DNA from: an uncultured archaeon
Lineage (GTDB): Archaea > Aenigmatarchaeota > Aenigmatarchaeia > GW2011-AR5
NCBI GenBank assembly: GCA_964373255.1
Contig: CAYJTG010000005.1
Span: 10,638-74,637 of the forward strand
Length of the DNA stretch: 64,000 nt
Direction: 5' to 3'
Under the pieces are notes generated by a model. That model made no database searches. It was given only the letters and a program-made list of their open reading frames with translations, and had not been told where the DNA came from. This document shows positions 15,762-63,540 of the stretch, piece by piece. How positions within the stretch are numbered: the stretch's first letter is position 1; each line of letters opens with the position of its first letter. The translations under genes and the position numbers were made by a program.

Positions 15762-16046
15762 CTACATTAAGGAAACGAACAGATAGAAGTTGCAAAGCAA
15801 CTTCAGTTTGCTTTTCCTTATAATCTAGACTTATTATGAAGCAAGTAAATAACCTGAATATTATAACTTGCTTCATTTACATGGAGAATCGAAGATTCTC
15901 CTGTACAATTTCGAATTCCAGGAATTCGAATTGTAATTGAAAATCTGAAGGATTTTCAAATTACAGGTGAAGCGTAGCTTCACCATGTATAGCAAACAAG
16001 AAATATAATATCTGATTCTTTTCTTGTTTAGCTATAATCCCTTCCT
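15762..16046. mobile_element. Composite element in the L37ae-rpoP spacer: family-H element interrupted by a full-length (~203 bp) XY-type hairpin element
   Basis: H left part ctacattaaggaaa...tctagactta (15762-15833), XY insert ttatgaagcaag...gtttagctata (15834-16036), H right end atcccttcct (16037-16046). XY carries 5 hairpin modules. Confidence 0.6.
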
Positions 16047-18884: not shown

Positions 18885-18998
18885 ACACCGTGTAATTTAT
18901 TGTCCTAGAATTTGCCTGATAAATATATTGCGATTAAGTATTTAAGCGTTCTTCGTGGCGAGTTTTACAATCTTGTTCGCATAAAATCTTTTGTTCCG

Positions 18999-19129
18999 GC
19001 TCTGTTGAAAACCTATGAAAAAGCATCGACGTAGACCCTTACGTCTTATCGACGTAAGGGTCAGCTAGAGCTATCATCGAGAGATGATAGCTCTCACGTC
19101 GATGCTTTTATTGAGCATTTCAACAGAGC
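18999..19129. mobile_element. Family-A MITE-like palindromic element, copy A1 (131 bp)
   Basis: Terminal inverted repeat gctctgttgaaa / tttcaacagagc, enclosing inverted repeat aaagcatcgacgt / acgtcgatgcttt, two perfect 12-bp hairpins (gacccttacgtc-ttatc-gacgtaagggtc; agagctatcatc-gaga-gatgatagctct). Confidence 0.75.
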
Positions 19130-19271
19130 CTTTGTTCCATAATTCTAGCACAAATTTCACATATACTGTTTCCACATTTGCCATTCATAGCTTTAGCCGC
19201 AATAAAAAGATTATTCGGATGTATATCTGCATTTCCAGCTATAGAAATAATTAAATTTTTTTTATTCATAA

Positions 19272-21421: not shown

Positions 21422-21712
21422 TTAATTTATCCCAAGCATTACCTTGATCTCTTGTGAGGGTTTCCATTGCGGTAAAAAAACAATTTGTATTGATACGTCT
21501 TTTACGCCTTCTATCCGTTTCAGTTTTTCCTTTATGGTCTCGATGAGCACAGGGCCATAAGGACAAGCAGGCGTGGTAAATGTCATTTTTATATTTACCT
21601 TGTCCGTATCGATGTCAATGCCGTAAATAAGCTCCAGCGTCCACACGTCTATATTAATCTCTGGGTCCATGCACTCTTTCAGGACATCTATTACCTGTTG
21701 CATCGTTGTCAT
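21422..21712 (-). CDS. DUF59/MIP18-family Fe-S assembly protein
   Basis: 96 aa; VIDVLKECMDPEINIDVWTLELIYGIDI...VNIKMTFTTPACPYGPVLIETIKEKL matches the DUF59 (PaaD-like) core. Confidence 0.6.
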   Translation of the reverse strand: MTTMQQVIDVLKECMDPEINIDVWTLELIYGIDIDTDKVNIKMTFTTPACPYGPVLIETIKEKLKRIEGVKDVSIQIVFLPQWKPSQEIKVMLGIN

Positions 21713-21752
21713 GATATAACACTAGATAGCAATTCTTATATGATTATTTGAA

Positions 21753-22061
21753 TGGGCTTGGCAGGATTTGAACCTGCGTCACAAGCTCCCAATGAGCATC
21801 AAATTATAGCTCTACAAGGAAAGAAACAAGATACAAGAAAGAACGAAGTTCTTTCTGTACAGCAAGAGCAAAGCTCTTGCTTGTATTACTTCCTTGTGAG
21901 CTATATGTGAAACCGGAAAAACATGTCCGGATTCTTTTCTGGTTTCACTATAAGCTCGGATCATAGTCGTATGAGATGCGAAGCATCTCTATGCTCTAAC
22001 CAAATTGTCCCACCTTCCGCTTTGATGCAGCTTTCTGGAAAGGTGCCTAGACTACAAGCCC
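21753..22061 (-). tRNA. tRNA-like gene with about 235 nt of structured intervening sequence (candidate multi-intron tRNA; anticodon not resolved, loop ATTGGGA suggests Pro/UGG)
   Basis: Minus strand: 5' GGGCTTG-TA-GTCTAGG... and 3' ...GTGAC-GCAGG-TTCAAAT-CCTGC-CAAGCCC-A. 7-bp acceptor helix, canonical T arm, discriminator A. Interior has several perfect hairpins. Confidence 0.5.
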
Positions 22062-22123
22062 TATAGGGATAATGGGTAAAAAGAATTATTAAAAGGCTCT
22101 CTCACAACTAGAACAGTGGTTTA

Positions 22124-22249
22124 ATGGTGAAAAAGAAAACAAAGAAATCCAACAAGAAGGCTGCTATGTGCGCCTGCGGCTGCAAAATGTCTATTAAGAA
22201 TTGCAAATGCTGCGGCATGGGTGGAAAGAAAACCTGTAAGTGCTGCTGA
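22124..22249 (+). CDS. Small Lys/Cys-rich peptide, 41 aa (9 Cys; metallothionein-like or RiPP-precursor-like), not in ORF track
   Basis: Hand translation: MVKKKTKKSNKKAAMCACGCKMSIKNCKCCGMGGKKTCKCC. Paralogue of the peptide at 24375-24527. Confidence 0.45.
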   Translation: MVKKKTKKSNKKAAMCACGCKMSIKNCKCCGMGGKKTCKCC

Positions 22250-22262
22250 GCCTATCATTCAA

Positions 22263-22514
22263 TTAGAGCCGCATCGATTTATTTATCAGGTTATATTTTT
22301 GACTCTTTGATAGTTTCTTGAACGCCACTTCTGCCCTAAGCGCTTCGCCCTTCGTTTCGTGCGCCCAGTATGCAATAATTTCGACCGGAAGCCTGCTTCT
22401 AGTATATTTTGAGGCTTTTCCTTCATTGTGTAGCTTCAGTCTTCTCTTCAAGTTATTGGTATAACCTGTGTAAAATGATCCGTCCTTGCACTTCAAGACG
22501 TATACGTAGAACAT
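22263..22514 (-). CDS. GIY-YIG nuclease family protein (UPF0213-like)
   Basis: MFYVYVLKCKDGSFYTGYTNNLKRRLKLHNEG matches the GIY..YIG..N...R...H motif. Track ORF (to 22553) extends into MITE copy A4, so the internal Met at 22514 is taken as start. Confidence 0.65.
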   Translation of the reverse strand: MFYVYVLKCKDGSFYTGYTNNLKRRLKLHNEGKASKYTRSRLPVEIIAYWAHETKGEALRAEVAFKKLSKSQKYNLINKSMRL

Positions 22515-22524
22515 AAAATTACCT

Positions 22525-22655
22525 GCTCTGTAGAAATGCTCGATAAAGAGCATCGACGTAGACCTATACGTCTCTTGACGTATAGGTCAGCTAGAGATAT
22601 CATCGATAGATGATATCTCTCACGTCGATGCTCTTGCATAGGTTTTCTACAGAGC
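22525..22655. mobile_element. Family-A MITE-like element, diverged copy A4
   Basis: Same architecture as A1. Both internal hairpins carry compensatory substitutions that keep perfect pairing. Confidence 0.65.
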
Positions 22656-22707
22656 AAAATTACCTAATTATATACTATATATTCGGAAAGGATTAAGTCT
22701 GATTTCT

Positions 22708-22815
22708 CAGGAAGGGATTAAGTCTAGACACACAGAAAGCAAAGCTTTCTGGTGCACCAAAGAACCTTTGGTTCTTTGCGTGTTATAAGGGAAACCCAGG
22801 TTTCCCTTAATGTAG
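22708..22815 (-). repeat. Family-H hairpin-string element, copy H3 (reverse orientation)
   Basis: Reverse complement of the 51654-51761 element: cattaagggaaacccaggtttccctta / aaagaaccaaaggttcttt / cagaaagctttgctttctg / tctagacttaatcccttcctg. Confidence 0.6.
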
Positions 22816-22817
22816 AG

Positions 22818-23029
22818 TGGGCTCGCCCGGAATTTCACCGAAGCAGCATAATACTGCGATAGCCACCTAAGGATGGTAATGCCTTAGGAAGGATATCCTT
22901 CCTCGGCTTTGAACCGGGGTCTCATGCTTTTCAGTTTCTTTACTTGATTTTTCTGACTTTCTTGATTAAACTTCTTTTCAAAAGAAGTTTACCCTAAGCA
23001 CGGATCCTAACCAAACTAGACTACGAGCC
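22818..23029 (-). tRNA. Second tRNA-like gene with ~140 nt structured interior; 3' T-arm non-canonical (uncertain)
   Basis: Minus strand 5' GGGCTCG-TA-GTCTAGTTTGGTTAGGATCC... and 3' ...CGAGCCC-A (7-bp acceptor complement 212 nt apart). 5' 15 nt nearly identical to the 21753-22061 gene. Internal CCCGG-TTCAAAG-CCGAG T-arm-like segment. Interior has perfect hairpins (aaacttctttt-gaaa-agaagttt; gaaggatatccttc). Confidence 0.3.
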
Positions 23030-23069
23030 CATAAATTCTACATAGTTTATTAGATTTTTAAGGGGGTGA

Positions 23070-23212
23070 GACACTGTCAACTTAAGGGGTACATAATGGA
23101 ATCGAAGATTCCACTTGTACAGGTGAAGCTTTGCTTCACCATGTATTAGCTATCGCTAATACCCCAGAAAAGGCTGTTGCCTATAGGCAACAGCCGTTAA
23201 GTTGACAGTGCC
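23070..23212. mobile_element. Family-Z TIR element, copy Z1 (internal module replaced)
   Basis: TIRs cactgtcaacttaag / cttaagttgacagtg; internal ggctgttgcc-tatag-gcaacagcc hairpin. Central segment carries the ggaatcgaagattcc and caggtgaagctttgcttcacc modules seen at 15880-16000. Confidence 0.6.
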
Positions 23213-23217
23213 ATGGA

Positions 23218-24123
23218 GTGAACGTTATTAAAGTTCCGGTACAATTTCTAGAGATGCCTATTCCAAAAGGTTTTGATGACCTCGTTAAATTAGCCGTGAA
23301 GGACAGGCCGGAGAAGCCAAAAACCATCGAGGAAGTATGGGATAAATTTCTTTTTGTTGTTTTCATGGGCGGAAAGCGGTCAGAGCCTGAAATACAGTTT
23401 ATTACAACCATGCTCAAGGCAAAGAAACTTGTCCAGTTTGACTATGTCCTGAAGACAGACGGCGACGACTGGCGCGAAGCCGTTGAAGCAGTGCTCAACG
23501 ACCGATTGAAGAGAATGCAGGACGAGGACCTTAAGGTAGCGCTAAAAGAATTCCAAAAAGAGATATTTAGGATAAGCGCTTCAATCAAGGGGGGTGCACG
23601 ATTTTTAAAAAACATGACACCTGACGGACTCGCCGAGGCGCTCAGCAACAAAGAAAAGACTTGGGAATTCATCGAAAACCTGGCCAACAACCAGGACGTT
23701 TCCAACATAAAGTATACAAAGATAATCATTTGGCTGCATTCCATAGGCTACGGCTATGATTTTTGCCCGCCGAGCTGGCAAACAAAAAAATTCATCAATA
23801 CCGAGGTCGGGCCGTATTACAACTTCTACGAGGACGATAAGTATTTCATGAAAAAAGCCGAGGAGTTTTCTGAAGACGTCAAGAAAAAGGTCAAAGGCGC
23901 AACAGCCCGAGACGTGTCTGCGGCAATTTATTATTATATGGTATTAAAAAATTCTCTCCCCACGCGTTCTCCAATAAAGAAAAGATGTACGGCGGCGGTC
24001 ATAGTCCGGTTCCTTAAGAAAAAGAAGCTTTCACTTAAAGACATTTCTGCCGCTCTTGTCGATTTTGACGGCAGAGAGAGGATTATGAAAACATTTTTTG
24101 AATTTTTGAATAAGACAAAATAA
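23218..24123 (+). CDS. Hypothetical protein, 301 aa
   Basis: Long ORF with reasonable codon usage; no motif recognised. Confidence 0.3.
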   Translation: MNVIKVPVQFLEMPIPKGFDDLVKLAVKDRPEKPKTIEEVWDKFLFVVFMGGKRSEPEIQFITTMLKAKKLVQFDYVLKTDGDDWREAVEAVLNDRLKRMQDEDLKVALKEFQKEIFRISASIKGGARFLKNMTPDGLAEALSNKEKTWEFIENLANNQDVSNIKYTKIIIWLHSIGYGYDFCPPSWQTKKFINTEVGPYYNFYEDDKYFMKKAEEFSEDVKKKVKGATARDVSAAIYYYMVLKNSLPTRSPIKKRCTAAVIVRFLKKKKLSLKDISAALVDFDGRERIMKTFFEFLNKTK

Positions 24124-26079: not shown

Positions 26080-26121
26080 ATAATTAAATAAATTAAATAT
26101 TTGATTTTGGGAGGTAGTTGC

Positions 26122-29100
26122 ATGGCAAAAATAACAAAAGTTCGAAAAAGAGACGGAAGAATTGTAAATTTTGGCAAAGACAAGATAACAAACGCTATAT
26201 TCAAGGCCGTCCAGGCAGTAGGCGGGTCTGACAAAACTATAGCAGAAAGCCTTGCAAATCAGGTCATGGAAATTCTGGAAAAGAATATGCCACCGGGCGC
26301 TATTCCAAACATAGAGGATATACAGGATATTGTCGAGAGGGTTCTGATAGAATCCGGCCATGCAAAGACAGCAAAGGCCTACATACTTTACAGGAATGAG
26401 CACGCCAGAGTAAGGGAAGAGCAGAAAAGAATATTAGGCGGCAAAACAACAAAGCTCCCCTTCAGCATGAATGCCCTGCAGGTTCTTGCAAAGCGCTACC
26501 TTGTAAGAAACAGGGACGGTAATGTTATTGAATCGCCTGATGATATGTTCGAGAGGGTTGCTGATTCTTTGGCAAGCGTGGAGTACGAGTATGGAAAAAC
26601 AAACGAGGAAGTCGAAAAATTTTCCCAGCAGTTCAATGAAATCATGGCAAGTTTTGAGTTCATACCAGCTGGGCGCACAATGACAAACGCGGGCTCGCCG
26701 ACCCCTATAGTGCCTAATTGCATAGTCCTTCATATTGGCGACAACATGGATAACATATTTCAGACACTTAAAGAAGCCTCGCTTCTTCAGCAGGCAGGCT
26801 CTGGGTTGGGATTTCCGTTCCACCTGCTAAGGCCGGCCGGCACCGTTGCAAAGCGCTCCCGTGGGGTAGCCTCCGGTCCGGTCTCTTTCCTGCGCGTTTA
26901 CAATAATGCATTCGGCGTGATAAAACAGCAAAACAGGCACGGCGCGAACATGGGCGTTATGCGCGTCGACCATCCGGATATACTTGAATTCATACACGCA
27001 AAGGACGTCGAGGGCGAGATAAGGAACTTCAACATCTCCGTTGCAATTACAGATGAATTCATGCAGAAGGCACGCGACAACGATTCAACGCCTTGGATAT
27101 GCGAGTGGAACGGCGAAAAGATGAAGCCAAGGCGCGTTTACAGGGATTCAAACGGCATTGTTCTCGACATCAAGGAGGAGACAATGACGGCAAAAGAAAT
27201 CTTCATGGAAATTGTGTCGTCGGCATGGCAGACCGGCGAACCTGGAATAATCTTCATCGACAAAATAAATGATACAAATCCGTTGCCCGGTCTTGGTCGA
27301 ATAGAGGCGTGTAATCCTTGTGTGACCGGCGATACATTAGTAAGCACGGAACACGGAATGATGAAAATATCTGATTTGGCAGAGAAACATGGAAAAGGTG
27401 GCGTATCTGTAATTTGTGACAATAGGATGCCTATAACAATATATGAATCTGATGGAACCAAAGTCCTGATATACAAAGGCACAAAAGGCACACAAATCAA
27501 TAACGTGAGTGCTGCATGGAAATCTGGCTTCAAAGATGTATTGAAAATTGAAACAGAATCGGGGTACGAGCTTGAAGCCACAGCAGATCATAAGATAATG
27601 ACAACAAAAGGATGGATAGATGTCGAAAACCTTACAAAAGAACACGAAATTCTTATTCAATCAGGAGAAGGAAGATTCTCTGTAAACAACCAAATTCCAT
27701 TTGAAGTGCAGAATGAATTTATTGGAGAAAATGGCAGAACTTATAAATATAATTTTCCTCGTCAATGGAACAGGGAATTGGGGCAACTTCTTGGCTGGAT
27801 CGTAGGTGATGGCTGGATAAGAGACAAGGAAAAGGAGTGCGATAAAGAAATAATGACACATATAAAGTCGATAGGAAACATGATTTATGGCTCTGAAAAA
27901 CGAGAAATTGAAAGAATAAGAAATACACACCATCTCAATTATGGTTCACGACGCTTTGTAGAATACCTTATGAAGCTTGGGCTCAAGACAACAGGCGCAG
28001 AAAATAAAGAAGTACCAAAGAGCATTTTCACAGCACCAAAAGACGCTGTATCAGGCTTCCTTCAAGGTTTGTTTTCATCAGATGGCACAGTAATGCTAGA
28101 CGAAAAACATGGCAACTATTATATAAGATTGACAACGAAATCGATAAAACTTGCAAAACAGGTTCAGACACTTCTTCTGAACTTCGGAATTAAGTCAAGA
28201 ATATACGACAGGAGCAGGCCGCCAAAAAAGAACCTATTTACGTATGAAACAAAATCAGGAGAAAAAAGAACTTATGCATCTGACGGAATTCTGTTTGAAG
28301 TGCATGTACATGGCGATACAATAATAAAATTTAATGAACAAATAGGATTTCTATGCAGTAAAAATAAAGAGAAAATAGAAAAGATACTGAAAAAGAATCT
28401 AAGAGACGATAAATTTACAGACAAAGTAAAATATGTCGAGTACATTGGCAAGAAAGATGTCTACGATCTCACAGAACCAGCGACGCACTCTTTCATAGCA
28501 AATGGTATTGTGGTATCAAATTGTGGTGAGCAATTTCTCCACGACGGCGATGTCTGCAATCTTGGTTCGATAAATCTGGAAAAATTTGTAAAAGATGGCA
28601 AAATAGATTTTGATCGATTAAGGCATGTCACACGTTTAGCTGTGCGTATGCTTGACAACGTTGTCGATATCACAGCAGCGCCTGCCGACCGTGTCAATCA
28701 CATGTTCCGCGCAAACCGCAGGGTCGGTTTGGGCATAATGGGCTTTGCGGATATGCTCTATCAACTGAAGATAGGTTATAATGCAGAAGAGGGCGCAAAG
28801 ACAGCAGAAAAGGTCATGAACTGCATTCAAGAATCTGCCCACCAAATGTCGCAAGAGCTTGCTGAGGAGAAAGGCGTGTTTCCAAACTGGGAGAAGAGCG
28901 TATTTGCAAAGAAAGGTATAAAGATGCGAAACGCCGCGCTCACAAACATCGCCCCGACAGGAACTATATCCATGGTCTTCGACGTTTCCGGGGGCGTAGA
29001 ACCTTATTTTGCCTTGGCTTACCACTACCAGGGAATTCTGGGGGGCGCAACCCAGCTCTACTACGTCAACAAGCACCTGAGAAAGACACTGGAAGAGTAT

Positions 29101-29589
29101 GGTTTATACAACGATGTAATAATGAAGCGCATATTTGAGGAAGGAACGCTGCAGCGTATAGAAGAAATCCCTGATGATTTGAAGCGTGTGTTTGTCACGG
29201 CCATGGATATTTCATCCGACGACCACATACGGGTGCAGGCGGCTTTCCAGAAATACGTTGACAACAGCATATCAAAGACGTGCAACTTCCCTGAGGACGC
29301 TACAAAAGAGGACGTCTTTCAGGGATATCTGCTCGCCTGGCAGCTCGGCTGCAAGAGCTGCACCGTGTACAGAAACAACTCACGCAGGCTGCAAGTGCTG
29401 AATCTTAACAAGCAGAAACAGGAGGAAGTTCAGGAAGAGGAGTACGAGCCGCAGCAGCAGAAGATAGCGGTCGCAGCCACAAACGGTTCTACACATTACA
29501 CGACGTGTCCAGAGTGTGACACCGTGCTGGAGCAAAAAGAAGGGTGTTCTTCTTGCCCTCAGTGCGGCTGGGGATTGTGCAGCGTGTAA
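26122..29589 (+). CDS. nrdJ: Class II (B12-dependent) ribonucleotide reductase NrdJ, with N-terminal ATP cone, one intein, and C-terminal Zn ribbon
   Basis: ATP cone [21 protein letters not shown]. Catalytic motif NP|CGEQ split by the intein. C-terminal CPECD...CPQCG. GGAGGT 7 nt upstream of ATG 26122. Extein ~760 aa. Confidence 0.85.
27319..28521 (+). mobile_element. Intein (401 aa) with LAGLIDADG homing-endonuclease domain, inserted before the catalytic Cys of the RNR NPCGE motif
   Basis: N-extein ...EACNP | [11 protein letters not shown] (Cys1, block A) ... [11 protein letters not shown] and [12 protein letters not shown] (two LAGLIDADG-type motifs) ... IANGIVVSN | CGEQF (terminal Asn, +1 Cys). 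Confidence 0.8.
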
Positions 29590-34971: not shown

Positions 34972-34980
34972 TTACATAGT

Positions 34981-35167
34981 GCTCTGTAGAAAACCTATGC
35001 AAGAGCATCGACGTGAGAGCTATTATCTTCTAAGATAACAAAGTTATCTTGAAGATTCAGGTTGACTTTGTCAACCATGAATCTGTCGATAATAGCTCTA
35101 GCTGACCTATACGTCAAGAGACGTATAGGTCTACGTCGATGCTCTTTATCGTGCATTTCTACAGAGC
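34981..35167. mobile_element. Family-A MITE-like element, copy A5 with inverted core plus a 70-bp insert
   Basis: Same TIRs and cgtcgatgc inverted repeats as A1. Internal hairpin pair is in reverse-complement order relative to A1/A2/A3. Also carries an extra insert ttctaagataacaaagttatcttgaa... Confidence 0.65.
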
Positions 35168-35220
35168 TTTACATAGGAAATCTCATCAACTTTTTATAAA
35201 AGGCACTACAATAGATTTCT

Positions 35221-42448: not shown

Positions 42449-42616
42449 ACTACATTAAGGGAAAAGAACAGATAGAAGTTGCTTCGCAACTTCAGTTTGT
42501 CTTTCCCTTAAAATGCTCAAAGAACCGAAGGTTCTTTGACATCTGCAAAGAAGCATAGCTTCTTTGAGATTCCGAAAAGCTTTGCTTTCTGAGCATCTAG
42601 ACTTAATCCTTTCCTG
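42449..42616 (+). repeat. Family-H hairpin-string element, copy H1, abutting the gltX stop codon
   Basis: ctacattaagggaaa[...gaagttgc-ttcg-gcaacttc...]tttccctta / aaagaaccgaaggttcttt / ...tctagacttaatcctttcctg. Confidence 0.6.
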
Positions 42617-46606: not shown

Positions 46607-46650
46607 GATTGTGATGTGTAAACCAAATCTTAAATACGTAAAAAACTAGA

Positions 46651-46846
46651 GCACTGTCAACTTATTATGAAGCAAGTAAATAATCTGGATATTATAGCAA
46701 ACAAGAAATATAATACCTGATTCTTTTCTTGTTTAGCTATAAGGGTGGTTAGCCATTGCTAACCACCCAGAAAAGGCTGTTGCCAAAGCAGATAGACGCA
46801 CTTTAGTGCGTCAGTTTGTTTCAACAGCCGCTAAGTTGACAGTGCC
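46651..46846. mobile_element. Family-Z TIR element, copy Z2, with two nested insertions
   Basis: TIRs gcactgtcaactta / taagttgacagtgcc. A 79-bp XY-type element (ttatgaagcaagtaaataatctg...gtttagctata) inserted after caactta. A second hairpin module (agatagacgcactttagtgcgtcagtttgtttc) lies inside the ggctgttgcc...aacagcc loop. Confidence 0.6.
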
Positions 46847-46850
46847 AAAA

Positions 46851-47852
46851 TTAGAGCCACACTACTTCCACGTCATCAACACGCCATTTCGGGTTGAAGT
46901 CTATCTTCTTTGTTATTTTTTGCCCTGCGTTATGGGCAAGCCATCCGGCTATTGCTATCATACTTCCGTTGTCACCCGAATATTCCAAGGGGCATGCAAA
47001 AAGCTTCGCACTTCTTTCTTCGCACATTATGTTGAGCATTTCTGTCAGACGTTTGGATGCAGCAACGCCGCCTGTTGTCAGCACCTCTGTTTTTCCTGTA
47101 TGTGCAAGCGCTCGTTCTGTTACTTCTGTCAGCATCGCGTAGCAAGTCTCCTGAAATGAGAAGCATAGGTCAGCAAGCAACCCTGAGCGCTGTTTTTCTG
47201 TTTTTACATTACTATTTTCCCACTTCTGCACAGCAGCCGTGAGTATGCCTGAAAATGAGAGGTCCATGCCCTTTACAACGTAAGGCAGCTCGATATAATT
47301 CCCGCCTTGTGACAGTTGTTCCATCAGCGGTCCGCCGAAGCCCGGATTTCCTGTAACCTCGCGCATAAATGTGTCAATGGCATTGCCGATCGCTATGTCT
47401 TCTGTTTCCCCAAAAACGCGGTAGCGTTTTTGGGCGTAGCCAATTATTTGCGTGTTGCCTCCTGATACATAAATGACGATAGGGTCTTTGCATTTCGTAA
47501 GAAAGCGGCCTATTTCTATGTGCGCCACAGGATGATTTACGGCAACGACGGGCTTGTTTGTTTCCTTTGAAATTTGTGAAGCAAATTCTGCGCCGATTTT
47601 CAGACACGGCGGCATACCAGGCCCTGCTGAGTAAGAAATCAAGTCGATGTCACTAAGCGCAAGGCTTGTTTGCCCTAGCGCTTTGCTCAATACATCATCC
47701 TTTACTTTTTCATGGTGGTTCTTTGCCTCTATCGGGTGTATGCCGCCTTTCTCAGGCTTGTATACGTCGCGCACGTCTGCCAGAATTTTTTCCCCGTCGA
47801 ATATGCCTATGCCAAACGTATGGGCGGTGCATTCTATTCCGAGCGATATCAT
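46851..47852 (-). CDS. kae1: Kae1 (tRNA t6A37 threonylcarbamoyltransferase), stand-alone without Bud32 fusion
   Basis: MISLGIECTAHTFGIGI... with conserved HxxxH-type metal site (HPIEAKNHH) and the Kae1/TsaD ASKH fold. 333 aa. Confidence 0.9.
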   Translation of the reverse strand: MISLGIECTAHTFGIGIFDGEKILADVRDVYKPEKGGIHPIEAKNHHEKVKDDVLSKALGQTSLALSDIDLISYSAGPGMPPCLKIGAEFASQISKETNKPVVAVNHPVAHIEIGRFLTKCKDPIVIYVSGGNTQIIGYAQKRYRVFGETEDIAIGNAIDTFMREVTGNPGFGGPLMEQLSQGGNYIELPYVVKGMDLSFSGILTAAVQKWENSNVKTEKQRSGLLADLCFSFQETCYAMLTEVTERALAHTGKTEVLTTGGVAASKRLTEMLNIMCEERSAKLFACPLEYSGDNGSMIAIAGWLAHNAGQKITKKIDFNPKWRVDDVEVVWL

Positions 47853-48889: not shown

Positions 48890-48910
48890 GATTATAAACC
48901 TCTTACTTTG

Positions 48911-49041
48911 GCTCTGTTGAAAACCTATGAAAAAGCATCGACGTAGACCCTTACGTCTTATCGACGTAAGGGTCAGCTAGAGCTATTGTCAAAAGACAAT
49001 AGCTCTCACGTCGATGCTTTTATTGAGCATTTCAACAGAGC
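48911..49041. mobile_element. Family-A MITE-like element, copy A2, filling the S24e-S27ae spacer
   Basis: Identical TIRs and outer stems to A1. Second hairpin carries compensatory change (ctattgtc-aaaa-gacaatag versus ctatcatc-gaga-gatgatag). Confidence 0.75.
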
Positions 49042-49043
49042 TC

Positions 49044-50976: not shown

Positions 50977-51087
50977 AATACATCCCTTTTCTTAAGACTG
51001 ATAGACGCATCGAAGATGCGTCAGTTTGTTTAAGGTCTGTATCAATCCCAAAAGAACATGGGATCTTTCAGACCTTCAATTTCAATA

Positions 51088-51653: not shown

Positions 51654-51761
51654 CTACATTAAGGGAAACCCAGGTTTCCCTTATAACACGCAAAGAACCA
51701 AAGGTTCTTTGGTGCACCAGAAAGCTTTGCTTTCTGTGTGTCTAGACTTAATCCCTTCCTG
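51654..51761 (+). repeat. Family-H hairpin-string element, copy H2, immediately upstream of rpoE
   Basis: cattaagggaaacccaggtttccctta / aaagaaccaaaggttcttt / cagaaagctttgctttctg / tctagacttaatcccttcctg. Confidence 0.6.
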
Positions 51762-52307: not shown

Positions 52308-52546
52308 CGAATAAACCCGATTCCAACTATCATAGAAAACTTTTTAAAGACGTTTCTGTTTTTTGTTCTGTATGTTAAGTTAATGTGATCCAAATAAATA
52401 ATCGTGATACTAAATTTGGATCACAGTACATAGCGAAACAAAGTTTCGCTTGTACAGGTAAAGCTTTGCTTTACCATGTACTGTGCACAAGGAATGTAAT
52501 ATACCGATTCATTCCTTGTAGCACATTAAAAGAAAACAGAGCCCGT

Positions 52547-55554: not shown

Positions 55555-55977
55555 TTAATCTTCGTCGCTTTCTTTTTCTGATCCTTCTGAAGAATCTTCT
55601 TCCTGAGTCTCTTCTGATTCAGAGCTCGATTCTTTCTGCTCTGCCTCTTCTGTCTGTTCTGATGCGCCAACCTTGTCGGCTATAGCGAACTTGTTTGCAA
55701 CTTCTCTTATCCTTATTCTGCACTGTTCGCCCTTCTTTCCGCCGTTGACGAAGACGACAAAATTTTCAACCTTCGTTATTCCGTCGCCTTTCGAACCGAT
55801 GTCTGTTATGGTTACGTCGTACTCTTCTCCTATTTTTATGGGCTTTGGCCTGTCAAATCTGTCATGCCCGAATCCGCCGCCTCCACCGCCGTAGCCACCG
55901 CCTCCACCGCCGTAGCCACCGCCGCCTCCACCGCCGCGACGATCTCTTCCGAATCCGCCTCTTCCTCTTCTTTCCAT
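55555..55977 (-). CDS. TRAM-domain protein with N-terminal RGG/GGY low-complexity region and acidic C-terminal tail
   Basis: MERRGRGGFGRDRRGGGGGGGYGGGGGGYGGGGGGFG. TRAM-like beta barrel (KIGEEYDVTITDIGSKGDGITKVENFVVFVNGGKKGEQCRIRIREVANKFAIA). E/S/D-rich tail. Confidence 0.6.
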   Translation of the reverse strand: MERRGRGGFGRDRRGGGGGGGYGGGGGGYGGGGGGFGHDRFDRPKPIKIGEEYDVTITDIGSKGDGITKVENFVVFVNGGKKGEQCRIRIREVANKFAIADKVGASEQTEEAEQKESSSESEETQEEDSSEGSEKESDED

Positions 55978-56263
55978 TCTTCAACACCTTCTATTTTTTA
56001 TTAGGGCGATACATAAGTCGGTCTAGTTGTTTGTTGATTGAGCAAAGACCGTCTTTCGTATTCAATACCCCTTTATATTTTCGTTAGAAACAGGACCTCA
56101 ATGAAGCTCTAGTAAAAGCGAAAAATCGCCCCGACTTCTTAACTAAAGCCAAAAACCCTGAATTCCGGGTTCCTTCTGCCTTACTTCCCTTCACTTACTT
56201 CCTTTCCCTAACAGTACTAATTATTGATAAAAGATAAGTATTTAAAAAGGATAAATCGGAGGG

Positions 56264-56351
56264 GCACTGTCAACTTAAGGGTGGTTAGCTGTTGCTAACC
56301 ACCCAGAAAAGGCTGTTGCCGATAGGCAACAGCCGTTAAGTTGACAGTGCC
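56264..56351. mobile_element. Family-Z TIR element, compact canonical copy Z3 (88 bp)
   Basis: ggcactgtcaacttaag / gggtggttagc-tgtt-gctaaccaccc / agaaaa / ggctgttgcc-gatag-gcaacagcc / gttaagttgacagtgcc. Two perfect hairpins inside perfect 16-bp TIRs. Confidence 0.7.
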
Positions 56352-56422
56352 ATCGGAGGCAAACTTGTTTTTACTTGTCTTTTCTTGAGAATTTCTTACT
56401 TGATTTTCTTTCTTAAAGAAAA

Positions 56423-63337: not shown

Positions 63338-63377
63338 AATTTTATATGGCGGATTGTGTTTATATTGGTTTTTATTA

Positions 63378-63509
63378 GCTCTGTTGAAAACCTATGAAAA
63401 AGCATCGACGTAGACCCTTACGTCTTATCTACGTAAGGGTCAGCTAGAGCTATCATCAACAGACGATAGCTCTCACGTCGATGCTTTTTGTTGAGCATTT
63501 CTACAGAGC
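63378..63509. mobile_element. Family-A MITE-like element, copy A3
   Basis: Near-identical to A1 over the first 75 bp; right hairpin variant (ctatcatc-aaca-gacgatag); right TIR tttctacagagc. Confidence 0.75.
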
Positions 63510-63540
63510 CTTTTTATTCTTTCTTCTGAATACGGATTCT

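What the first reader, a model, noticed from the sequence alone, without database searches (positions are those of the whole stretch)
56264..56351. Family-Z: 88-bp element with perfect 16-bp TIRs and two internal hairpins, in 3 copies, two of them carrying nested inserts
Z3 is compact (TIR ggcactgtcaacttaa; hairpins gggtggttagc/gctaaccaccc and ggctgttgcc/ggcaacagcc). Z1 (23070-23212) has its first hairpin replaced by the V+W hairpin modules. Z2 (46651-46846) carries an XY insert and, inside the loop of the second hairpin, a further small hairpin module (agatagacgc-actttagt-gcgtcagtttgttt) that also occurs alone at 51001-51035. This gives three layers of nesting in 200 bp.
Basis: seen in the sequence. 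Interest (0 to 1): 0.6.

Follow-up and report, generated by a model that had tools for sequence, protein, structure and literature searches.

The report
Miniature IS6-type transposon in DPANN archaeon
The 89-bp repeat is a miniature, transposase-less relative of IS6-family insertion sequences, scattered between housekeeping genes of a small-genome Aenigmarchaeota archaeon and later invaded by even smaller hairpin repeats; it is a new example of a known kind of selfish DNA, not a new kind of system.

Summary
Its 16-nt terminus occurs as three convergent pairs, against 0.03 hits expected by chance.

The terminus GGCACTGTCAACTTAA is the inverted repeat of IS6-family insertion sequences. In a genome scan, 18 of 68 GG-initiated matches had a DDE_Tnp_IS240 transposase just inside them; 0 of 56 non-GG matches did. 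One of the 18 is archaeal. Z3 and Z2 are flanked by the 8-bp duplications typical of IS6 (8/8 and 7/8). Z is therefore an IS6-type MITE.

The window holds a second such family, D1: five copies, tips GGCTCTGTTGAAA, duplications 8/8, 8/8, 8/8, 8/8 and 7/8, with the same TIR-hairpin-hairpin-TIR layout.

Deleting a 54-nt insert from Z1 and a 77-nt insert from Z2, each with one flanking TA, restores the 89-nt core exactly. The nesting is real. Z1's first hairpin is interrupted, not replaced, and keeps pairing through three compensatory changes.

No transposase partner and no empty site could be found. Verdict: new member of a known kind, moderate interest.

The parts
56263..56351 (+). Z3: compact 89-nt IS6-type MITE. 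TIR-L 56263-56278; hairpin 1 56279-56304; linker AGAAAA 56305-56310; hairpin 2 56311-56334; TIR-R 56336-56351.
   Evidence: covariance model R1: 112.8 bits.
56255..56262 (+). Left copy of the Z3 8-bp target-site duplication, ATCGGAGG. The right copy is at 56352-56359.
   Evidence: 8/8 in register; empirical P about 4.5e-5.
56352..56359 (+). Right copy of the Z3 target-site duplication, ATCGGAGG.
23070..23212 (+). Z1: 143-nt copy. TIR-L GACACTGTCAACTTAA 23070-23085; hairpin 1 arms 23086-23091 + 23146-23150 and 23155-23165; hairpin 2 23172-23195; TIR-R 23197-23212.
   Evidence: The flanking duplication is only 6/8, with a 1-nt slip.
23092..23145 (+). Nested 54-nt insert in Z1: two TA-bounded palindromic 'beads', V and W. 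Removal restores the 89-nt core.
   Evidence: W also occurs at 15962-15990 and 52453-52481, and a W-like bead is in relative L125.
46650..46846 (+). Z2: 197-nt copy. TIR-L 46650-46664 (+A at 46742); hairpin 1 46743-46768; hairpin 2 arms 46775-46784 and 46822-46829; TIR-R 46831-46846. TSD AAAACTAG 46642-46649 / AAAATTAG 46847-46854.
   Evidence: (7/8, P about 6e-4).
46665..46741 (+). Nested 77-nt insert in Z2: X left arm and loop fused to module Y, bounded by TA.
   Evidence: matches 15829-15865 (94.6%) and 15988-16037 (98%).
46785..46821 (+). 37-nt stretch holding hairpin module T (CAGATAGA-stem-loop-stem-TCAGTTTGTTT). It replaces the 6 nt GATAGG of hairpin 2.
   Evidence: Other T copies: 51001-51035, 15771-15817, 42460-42506.
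18998..19130 (+). D1 copy, from the second IS6-type MITE family. Tips GGCTCTGTTGAAA; TSD TTTGTTCC 8/8.
22524..22656 (+). D1 copy. TSD AAATTACC 8/8.
34980..35168 (-). D1 variant copy, 189 nt. TSD TTACATAG 8/8.
48910..49042 (+). D1 copy. TSD CTTACTTT / CCTACTTT, 7/8.
63377..63510 (+). D1 copy. TSD TTTTTATT 8/8.

Best explanation
Z is a non-autonomous miniature inverted-repeat transposable element (MITE) of the IS6 family, living in the chromosome of a Candidatus Aenigmarchaeota (DPANN) archaeon.

Shown here: it is 89 nt long. It consists of two 16-nt IS6-type terminal inverted repeats enclosing two perfect hairpins. It has no ORF. It is multi-copy and strictly intergenic. It is flanked by 8-bp target duplications.

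Inferred: an IS6-family DDE transposase (Pfam DDE_Tnp_IS240) encoded elsewhere binds the two ends and inserts the element at an 8-bp staggered cut. If the enzyme behaves like IS26, this goes through a replicative cointegrate that is then resolved by recombination between the two copies.

Also shown: after insertion, Z copies served as landing sites for unrelated, smaller TA-flanked palindromic repeats. These add side branches without destroying the Z fold.

Inferred: the hairpin interior is kept by a pairing constraint of unknown nature. It may act as a terminator or RNA-stabilising structure on the minus strand.
For: (1) Terminus identity. Complete elements in L077 (cyanobacterium) and L015 (Acidobacteriota) have convergent GGCACTGTCAACTTAA ends about 0.8 kb apart, enclosing PF13610 DDE_Tnp_IS240 ORFs (E = 2e-29 and 1e-21). 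Of 68 GG-initiated termini in the scan, 18 have an IS6 transposase within 1 kb inside; of 56 non-GG chance hits, none does. Transposase-linked ends match Z's right end for 17-19 nt.

(2) An archaeal example. L007 (Caldarchaeum) is about 710 bp with PF13610 at E = 4.6e-12 and a 17-nt identical end. Its transposase has the archaeal motif E--F---K-R, and NCBI names its homologues IS6 family transposase.

(3) Family hallmarks from the literature: 8-bp direct repeats, 15-20 bp IRs with a GG tip and cTGTt (PMC7986276); G at positions 1, 2 and 7, and archaeal TIRs lacking G10 (PMC6807381). Z reads G1 G2 G7 A10.

(4) TSDs. Z3 is 8/8 (P about 4.5e-5) and Z2 is 7/8 (P about 6e-4).

(5) A second family. 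D1, in the same window, has IS6-type tips GGCTCTGTTGAAA and 8-bp TSDs of 8/8, 8/8, 8/8, 8/8 and 7/8, with the same TIR-hairpin-hairpin-TIR layout. IS6-type transposition has therefore clearly operated in this genome.

(6) Location. All 8 copies are intergenic in a window that is about 85% ORF.

(7) Multi-copy behaviour. Short-read Logan contigs from three runs break about 30 nt into Z copies.

(8) The ends behave like binding sites, not an RNA stem. Changes in the TIR 'stem' are uncompensated (3 unpaired cells), as expected for two independent protein-binding ends.
Against: No IS6 transposase was found in the 64-kb window, and the 30 ORFs scanned against Pfam are all housekeeping or without hits. 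None was found in the related Aenigmarchaeota loci L122-L127 either, whether queried with bacterial-type or archaeal-type sequences. None of the top 120 homologues of the archaeal IS6 transposase is from Aenigmarchaeota.

No empty site or insertion polymorphism was found. Z3 is present in all three sequencing runs sampled.

Only three copies are visible, and Z1's TSD is degenerate.

IS26-type copy-in transposition yields cointegrates, not simple insertions (PMC6807381). An 89-bp element would therefore need inefficient resolution by recombination.

Z's interior resembles no IS6 sequence. The three compensatory changes in hairpin 1 point to a structural constraint that plain selfish-DNA logic does not explain.
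Confidence: 0.85

Rival explanations
1. Z copies are fossils. They are IS6-type MITEs that spread in an ancestor, can no longer move because the lineage lost the transposase, and persist as neutral DNA or exapted structures, for example hairpin-plus-T-tract terminators or RNA 3' stabilisers for the upstream minus-strand genes.
For: No partner transposase was found anywhere accessible. Z3 is fixed in three runs. Z1 and Z2 have decayed tips and secondary insertions. On the minus strand, Z3 hairpin 2 followed by TTTTCT is flagged as terminator-like 72 nt after the Ogg stop codon, and Z2 lies 4 nt after the Kae1 stop codon.
Against: Z3 has perfect 16/16 TIRs and a perfect 8/8 TSD, and four of five D1 copies have perfect TSDs. 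That suggests recent movement. Only 64 kb of the genome could be inspected. As far as I know, archaeal termination depends on oligo-T rather than on hairpins. In Z2 the hairpin-2 signal is disrupted by the T module.
Confidence: 0.3
2. Z is a structured non-coding RNA or cis-regulatory RNA family (a three-way-junction RNA). Its 'TIRs' are simply the closing stem.
For: The fold is very stable (z about -12 to -13). Hairpin 1 keeps 100% pairing through three compensatory double changes while the loops vary. All three copies have the same orientation.
Against: The closing stem is identical to the ends of transposase-bearing IS6 elements in bacteria and archaea. The flanks are 8-bp duplications. Changes in the closing stem are not compensated. 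No Rfam family matches. No copies were found in related Aenigmarchaeota loci or in JGI metagenomes. The genomic contexts are unrelated.
Confidence: 0.04
3. Z is moved by a structure-recognising enzyme acting on hairpin DNA, in the manner of REP/RAYT or IS200/IS605, and not by a DDE IS6 transposase. The similarity of its ends to IS6 would then be incidental.
For: The window is extraordinarily rich in hairpin repeats with covarying stems: 30 perfect stems of at least 9 bp against 0.8 expected. Z's interior is two perfect hairpins.
Against: As far as I know, Y1-transposase elements make no target duplication, whereas Z and D1 have 8-bp TSDs. A 16-19 nt identity to ends of PF13610-bearing elements is not incidental. 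No Y1 transposase was seen among the scanned ORFs.
Confidence: 0.03

Closest known systems
IS6 (IS6/IS26) family insertion sequences, archaeal and bacterial clades
   Same: The terminal inverted repeat has the GG tip, G7 and CTGT motif. It is identical over 16-19 nt to the ends of PF13610-bearing elements. The target duplication is 8 bp (PMC7986276).
   Different: Z is 89 nt and has no transposase, against 700-890 bp with a 213-254 aa transposase. Z's interior is two hairpins unrelated to any IS6 sequence.
IS6-family MITEs listed in ISfinder: MITEBth2 and MITEHarch3, 227 and 336 bp (PMC7986276, PMC6807381)
   Same: Both IS6-type ends with no intervening ORF; non-autonomous.
   Different: Z is 2.5-4 times shorter, has a fully hairpin-structured interior, and comes from a DPANN phylum. 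I could not obtain the sequences of the two listed MITEs, so no direct comparison was made.
Structured bacterial MITEs such as Correia, ERIC or RUP elements (own knowledge, not checked here)
   Same: Small size (about 100-150 bp), TIRs, intergenic location, strong RNA folding potential, and possible effects on transcript ends.
   Different: Different transposase families and TSDs (TA for IS630-type elements), and bacterial hosts.
Small dispersed repeats (SDR) of heterocystous cyanobacteria, and REP/REPIN elements (SDR mentioned in PMC3116915; details from own knowledge)
   Same: This comparison applies to the nested inserts, not to Z itself. They are 24-50 nt palindromic modules, found in tandem clusters and inserted into other repeats.
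   Different: The host is archaeal. The flanks are TA|CA...TG|TA. No RAYT was seen. Z itself has TIRs and TSDs, which REPINs lack.
DPANN MITE load reported in the 2024 census (PMC11602168)
   Same: High MITE density in DPANN genomes: 146 and 105 per Mb in an Altiarchaeum and a Woesearchaeon. Here it is 8 IS6-type copies in 64 kb, about 125 per Mb.
   Different: The passages I read (a term search for 'IS6' found no occurrence) do not assign those MITEs to IS6.

Membership tests
IS6-family MITE | Terminal inverted repeats of IS6 type (15-20 bp, GG tip, G7, cTGT) matching the ends of transposase-bearing IS6 elements | tested here: met
   GGCACTGTCAACTTAA is perfect 16/16 in Z3. The same ends enclose PF13610 ORFs in L077, L015 and L007. 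18 of 68 GG termini are transposase-linked against 0 of 56 non-GG termini. Consensus features are from PMC7986276 and PMC6807381.
IS6-family MITE | 8-bp direct target-site duplication | tested here: met
   Z3 8/8, Z2 7/8, Z1 6/8 only with a 1-nt slip. The sister family D1 gives 8/8 four times and 7/8 once.
IS6-family MITE | No transposase ORF between the ends; small size | tested here: met
   The core is 89 nt and has no ORF.
IS6-family MITE | Multiple dispersed copies in one genome | tested here: met
   Three copies in 64 kb. Short-read contigs break inside Z. The genome-wide count could not be obtained.
IS6-family MITE | Cognate autonomous IS6 element (PF13610 transposase with matching ends) in the same genome or lineage | tested here: inconclusive
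   None in the window, in Aenigmarchaeota loci L119-L127, or in the other archaeal or compact-element loci L042 and L128. None among the top 120 homologues of the archaeal IS6 transposase.
IS6-family MITE | Evidence of mobility: empty sites or insertion polymorphism | tested here: inconclusive
   Relatives at 71-80% protein identity carry a different gene at the Z3 site, so there is no usable empty site. Z3 is present in all three runs. Read-level data were not available.
Structured RNA family (Rfam) | Match to a curated covariance model | tested here: not met
   No gathering-score hit in the window. In the one stretch scanned at a permissive E-value threshold (21600-23300, which includes Z1) nothing overlapped Z1. 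The Z2 and Z3 regions were not scanned at that threshold.
Structured RNA family (Rfam) | Covariation supporting all helices | tested here: inconclusive
   Hairpin 1 has 3 compensatory pairs. The TIR helix has 3 uncompensated changes. There are only 3 sequences, and 13 of 500 shuffles reach the observed score.
REP / REPIN (RAYT-mobilised) | No target duplication; association with a RAYT (Y1 transposase) gene | tested here: not met
   8-bp TSDs are present. No Y1 transposase among the scanned ORFs.

The most novel reading that the evidence does not exclude
A reduced DPANN genome carries about 125 IS6-type MITEs per Mb from at least two TIR types, yet encodes no IS6 transposase of its own. The elements would then be mobilised by an enzyme from another replicon or from the host archaeon.

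The shared double-hairpin interior would be a selectable 'cargo' that moves between different terminal repeats. The same core occurs in relative L125 with other TIRs and a 9-bp TSD.

Separately, the 24-30-nt TA|CA...TG|TA bulged palindromes that invaded Z1, and that also sit inside a tRNA gene's intervening sequence, would be a distinct class of minimal mobile DNA in archaea.
Probability: 0.15. Interest if true: 0.7.

Novelty: new member of a known kind. Interest (0 to 1): 0.4.

Why it matters
IS6-family MITEs are rare in the curated record: two entries, of 227 and 336 bp. IS26-type transposases are thought to make only cointegrates. Against that background, two compact families of 89 and 133 nt, with clean 8-bp duplications and at high density in a small DPANN chromosome, are a useful natural test case. 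They bear on how, or whether, archaeal IS6-type enzymes produce simple insertions.

Practically, these elements break short-read assemblies of Aenigmarchaeota MAGs and explain much of the window's repeat structure.

The nested TA-flanked hairpin beads and the intron-bearing tRNA genes nearby are leads for separate study.

Tried and rejected
It used the only scan of that collection and never reached the source genome. It turned out useful only because many hits were real IS6 ends.

(2) Exact scans for Z's right end found nothing in JGI metagenomes or viral contigs. The paired-terminus scan gave a single unrelated compact element, L128. A D1-end scan of viral contigs found nothing.

(3) The empty-site test through relatives failed, because the Ogg-TRAM spacer holds a different gene in relatives.

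(4) Exact-protein look-ups of Kae1 and of the 301-aa ORF next to Z1 found nothing.

(5) The search for an Aenigmarchaeota IS6 transposase through homologues of the Caldarchaeum enzyme returned only Caldarchaeales, Nitrososphaerota and Bathyarchaeia.

(6) Z3 has no match in the plasmid collection.

(7) Literature searches for MITEHarch3, ISAMJ1 and ERR4904391, and for the Filee 2007 review by PMC id, gave nothing usable. The census supplements are not held.

(8) The solo 16-nt terminus in a Methanosarcinales MAG (L042) has no partner end or transposase. I left it as unexplained.

(9) I considered and rejected the idea that Z is an IS remnant, because both ends plus a TSD are present in each copy. 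I also rejected the idea that Z1's hairpin was replaced.

Full report
OBSERVATION. Reading the three loci confirms the element. Z3 spans 56263-56351. That is 89 nt, one more than reported, because the TIR GGCACTGTCAACTTAA begins at 56263. With up to 2 mismatches the 16-mer occurs six times in the window, as three convergent pairs at Z1 (23070-23212), Z2 (46650-46846) and Z3. By chance 0.03 hits are expected, and 0 of 100 shuffles reach six. Z3 contains two perfect hairpins, of 11 bp and 10 bp with 4-nt loops. It folds into a three-way junction at -66.9 kcal/mol as RNA (z = -12.7) and -42.2 kcal/mol as DNA (z = -13.8). No Rfam family reaches its gathering score in the window, and default ARAGORN finds no tRNA.

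SOURCE AND CONTEXT. The Ogg-type glycosylase next to Z3 has its nearest named homologues in Candidatus Aenigmarchaeota. The exact protein is recorded on a 96-kb NCBI contig and in Logan assemblies. The window is core chromosome: TBP, MCM, FttA, a proteasome subunit, ProRS, GluRS, CCA-adding enzyme, intein-bearing RNR, IMPDH, PurA, Kae1, DinB and H+-PPase. No transposase appears among the ORFs I scanned against Pfam. About 85% of the window is ORF, yet all Z copies are intergenic. Short-read Logan contigs from three runs stop about 30 nt inside Z2 or Z3. That is the behaviour of a multi-copy repeat, and it also shows Z3 present in every sample seen.

WHAT THE TERMINI ARE. Even so, the outer G of the full TIR was present in 54% of hits against 25% expected, and several contigs carried convergent pairs 0.8-2 kb apart. 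In L077 (a cyanobacterium) and L015 (Acidobacteriota) the pairs enclose ORFs matching Pfam DDE_Tnp_IS240, the IS6-family transposase (E = 2e-29 and 1e-21). Across all loci, 18 of 68 GG-initiated termini have an IS6 transposase within 1 kb inside, against 0 of 56 non-GG termini. The transposase-linked ends read GGCACTGTCAACTTAAC..., identical to Z's right end for 17-19 nt. One of them is archaeal. L007 (Caldarchaeum) is an element of about 710 bp with PF13610 at E = 4.6e-12. Its left end is GGCACTGTCAACTTAAG and its right end is GGTACTGTCAACCA. Its transposase carries the archaeal signature E--F---K-R, and NCBI names its homologues IS6 family transposase. RefSeq plasmid annotation labels relatives of the L077 element the same way.

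THE FAMILY IN THE LITERATURE. IS6 elements are 700-890 bp, make 8-bp direct repeats, and have 15-20 bp IRs with a GG tip and cTGTt. Only two MITEs, of 227 and 336 bp, are listed for the family (PMC7986276). G1, G2 and G7 are near-universal, and archaeal TIRs lack G10 and are longer. IS26 moves by copy-in cointegrate formation (PMC6807381). Z reads G1 G2 G7 A10.

TARGET DUPLICATIONS. Z3 is flanked by ATCGGAGG on both sides (8/8; empirical P about 4.5e-5). Z2 is flanked by AAAACTAG and AAAATTAG (7/8; P about 6e-4). Z1, the most diverged copy, shows only 6/8 with a 1-nt slip.

A SECOND FAMILY IN THE SAME WINDOW. A covariance model of the Z cores found no further Z copies in the window or in 11 further loci, about 160 kb searched in all. 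It weakly matched the double hairpins of repeat D1. D1 proves to be another MITE, with five copies at 18998-19130, 22524-22656, 34980-35168, 48910-49042 and 63377-63510. Its tips are GGCTCTGT(T/A)GAAA, that is G1 G2 G7 G10, close to the bacterial IS6 consensus GGTTCTGTTGCAAA. Its inverted repeat extends to about 34 nt. Its interior is hairpin-AGCT-hairpin with stems that covary between copies. Its 8-bp duplications are 8/8, 8/8, 8/8, 7/8 and 8/8. This gives eight IS6-type miniature elements in 64 kb, all intergenic, and IS6-type transposition has clearly acted on this chromosome. That density, about 125 per Mb, is in the range reported for other DPANN genomes (PMC11602168).

THE NESTED INSERTS. 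Deleting 23092-23145 (54 nt, V+W) from Z1 and 46665-46741 (77 nt) from Z2, each with one copy of a flanking TA, restores 89-nt cores in exact register with Z3 (79/89 and 79/83 identical). The Z1 core folds to the same junction at -57.4 kcal/mol. The intact Z1 and Z2 keep the outer stem and hairpin 2, with the inserts as extra branches. Z1's hairpin 1 is therefore interrupted rather than replaced. It differs from Z3 by three changes on each arm, all compensatory, giving 100% pairing. The three changes in the TIR 'stem' are uncompensated. This is what one expects if the ends are independent protein-binding sites while the interior is under a pairing constraint or palindrome-homogenising process. 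The Z2 insert equals 15829-15865 plus 15988-16037, that is the 15.8-kb module cluster minus its middle. The T module replaces GATAGG in hairpin 2 rather than inserting cleanly. Two layers of nesting are demonstrated, not three.

WHAT COULD NOT BE SHOWN. No IS6 transposase occurs in the window or in the related Aenigmarchaeota loci, with either bacterial-type or archaeal-type queries. None of the top 120 homologues of the Caldarchaeum enzyme is from Aenigmarchaeota. Relatives carry no Z termini. Z's right end is absent from JGI metagenomes and viral contigs. Only one other compact element with these ends was found, L128, which has an unrelated interior. Orthologous sites in relatives are too diverged to serve as empty sites.

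MECHANISM. Shown: IS6-type ends, 8-bp duplications, no coding capacity, multiple intergenic copies, and secondary invasion by other repeats. Inferred: mobilisation in trans by an IS6-family DDE transposase. If that enzyme works like IS26, each simple insertion needs a cointegrate, for example between sister chromosomes, followed by recombination between two 89-bp copies. Alternatively, archaeal enzymes of this group may make simple insertions, which is untested. A possible host-level effect is that, on the minus strand, Z3's hairpin 2 is followed by TTTTCT and is flagged as terminator-like 72 nt after the Ogg stop codon. Z2 lies 4 nt after the Kae1 stop codon. With two cases this is only a suggestion.

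VERDICT. Z is an IS6-type MITE, with confidence about 0.85. It is a new and unusually small member of a known kind, in a phylum for which I found no such description. The main open points are the missing transposase partner and whether the elements are still mobile. Interest is moderate.

Noticed in passing
window 18998-19130, 22524-22656, 34980-35168, 48910-49042, 63377-63510: D1 is a second IS6-type MITE family of 133-189 nt. Tips are GGCTCTGT(T/A)GAAA, the inverted repeat runs about 34 nt, and the interior is hairpin-AGCT-hairpin with covarying stems. The 8-bp TSDs are 8/8 in four copies and 7/8 in one.
   Followed up: yes
L125 7743-7874: The relative's D1-like element has the same double-hairpin core. 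It has different inverted repeats (GATTGAATTCCAT...) and a 9-bp duplication (CTCTTCATA), and it is inserted exactly at the RNR stop codon, so that the stop is rebuilt from the duplication plus the element's first G. The hairpin core seems to travel with different termini.
   Followed up: partly
window 21752-23031, minus strand: There are tRNA genes missed by default ARAGORN and by Rfam. With introns allowed, ARAGORN calls tRNA-Pro(TGG) with a 1,204-nt intron. That 'intron' contains a second 5' half (GGGCTTGTAGTCTAGG) and a second 3' end (...CGAGCCCA) with perfectly matching acceptor strands. Two intron-bearing tRNA genes are the likelier reading: c[21752..about 22100] and c[22817..23031]. A GIY-YIG ORF and a D1 copy lie between them. 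Hairpin beads and a Y-like module lie inside the first gene's intervening sequence, and Z1 starts 39 nt upstream of the second.
   Followed up: partly
window 15878-15990, 21832-21885, 23090-23147, 52427-52481; L125 15253-15305: There are tandem 'beads': 24-30-nt palindromes of the form TA|CA-stem-3 nt loop-stem-TG|TA. They usually have a one-base bulge near the base, share their TA with the next bead, and have different stems in each bead. The W bead recurs in three window sites and in a relative. They may be a very small mobile or structure-selected module class.
   Followed up: partly
window 51660-51683 and 22786-22809; L125 15366-15387: The hairpin TAAGGGAAA-loop-TTTCCCTTA sits directly upstream of the Rpb7-like gene in both the window and relative L125. 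Its position is conserved, so not all of the small hairpins are recent insertions.
   Followed up: partly
window-wide: There are 30 perfect hairpins with stems of at least 9 bp, against 0.8 in shuffles, nearly all in intergenic spacers. In several families (X, Y/D4, T/D13) the loops or flanks are conserved while the stems differ entirely between copies.
   Followed up: partly
L128 552-626: A GC-rich metagenome contig carries a 75-nt perfect palindrome bounded by the same IS6-type ends (GGCACTGTCAACTTAG / AGCACTGTCAACTTAG). It has an unrelated interior and no obvious TSD. It is the only other compact element with these ends in the JGI collection.
   Followed up: partly
L042 2458-2473: A Methanosarcinales MAG has a solitary, perfect 16-nt Z/IS6-type terminus with no partner end and no transposase nearby.
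   Followed up: partly
window 26101-29589: The ribonucleotide reductase large subunit carries an intein with a LAGLIDADG domain, as in relatives L125 and L126.
   Followed up: no
window 55555-55977 (minus strand; repeat at 55874-55936): The TRAM-domain protein has an N-terminal Gly/Arg-rich low-complexity tract (RGG/GGGYGGGG). It is encoded by a short tandem repeat (family D8).
   Followed up: no
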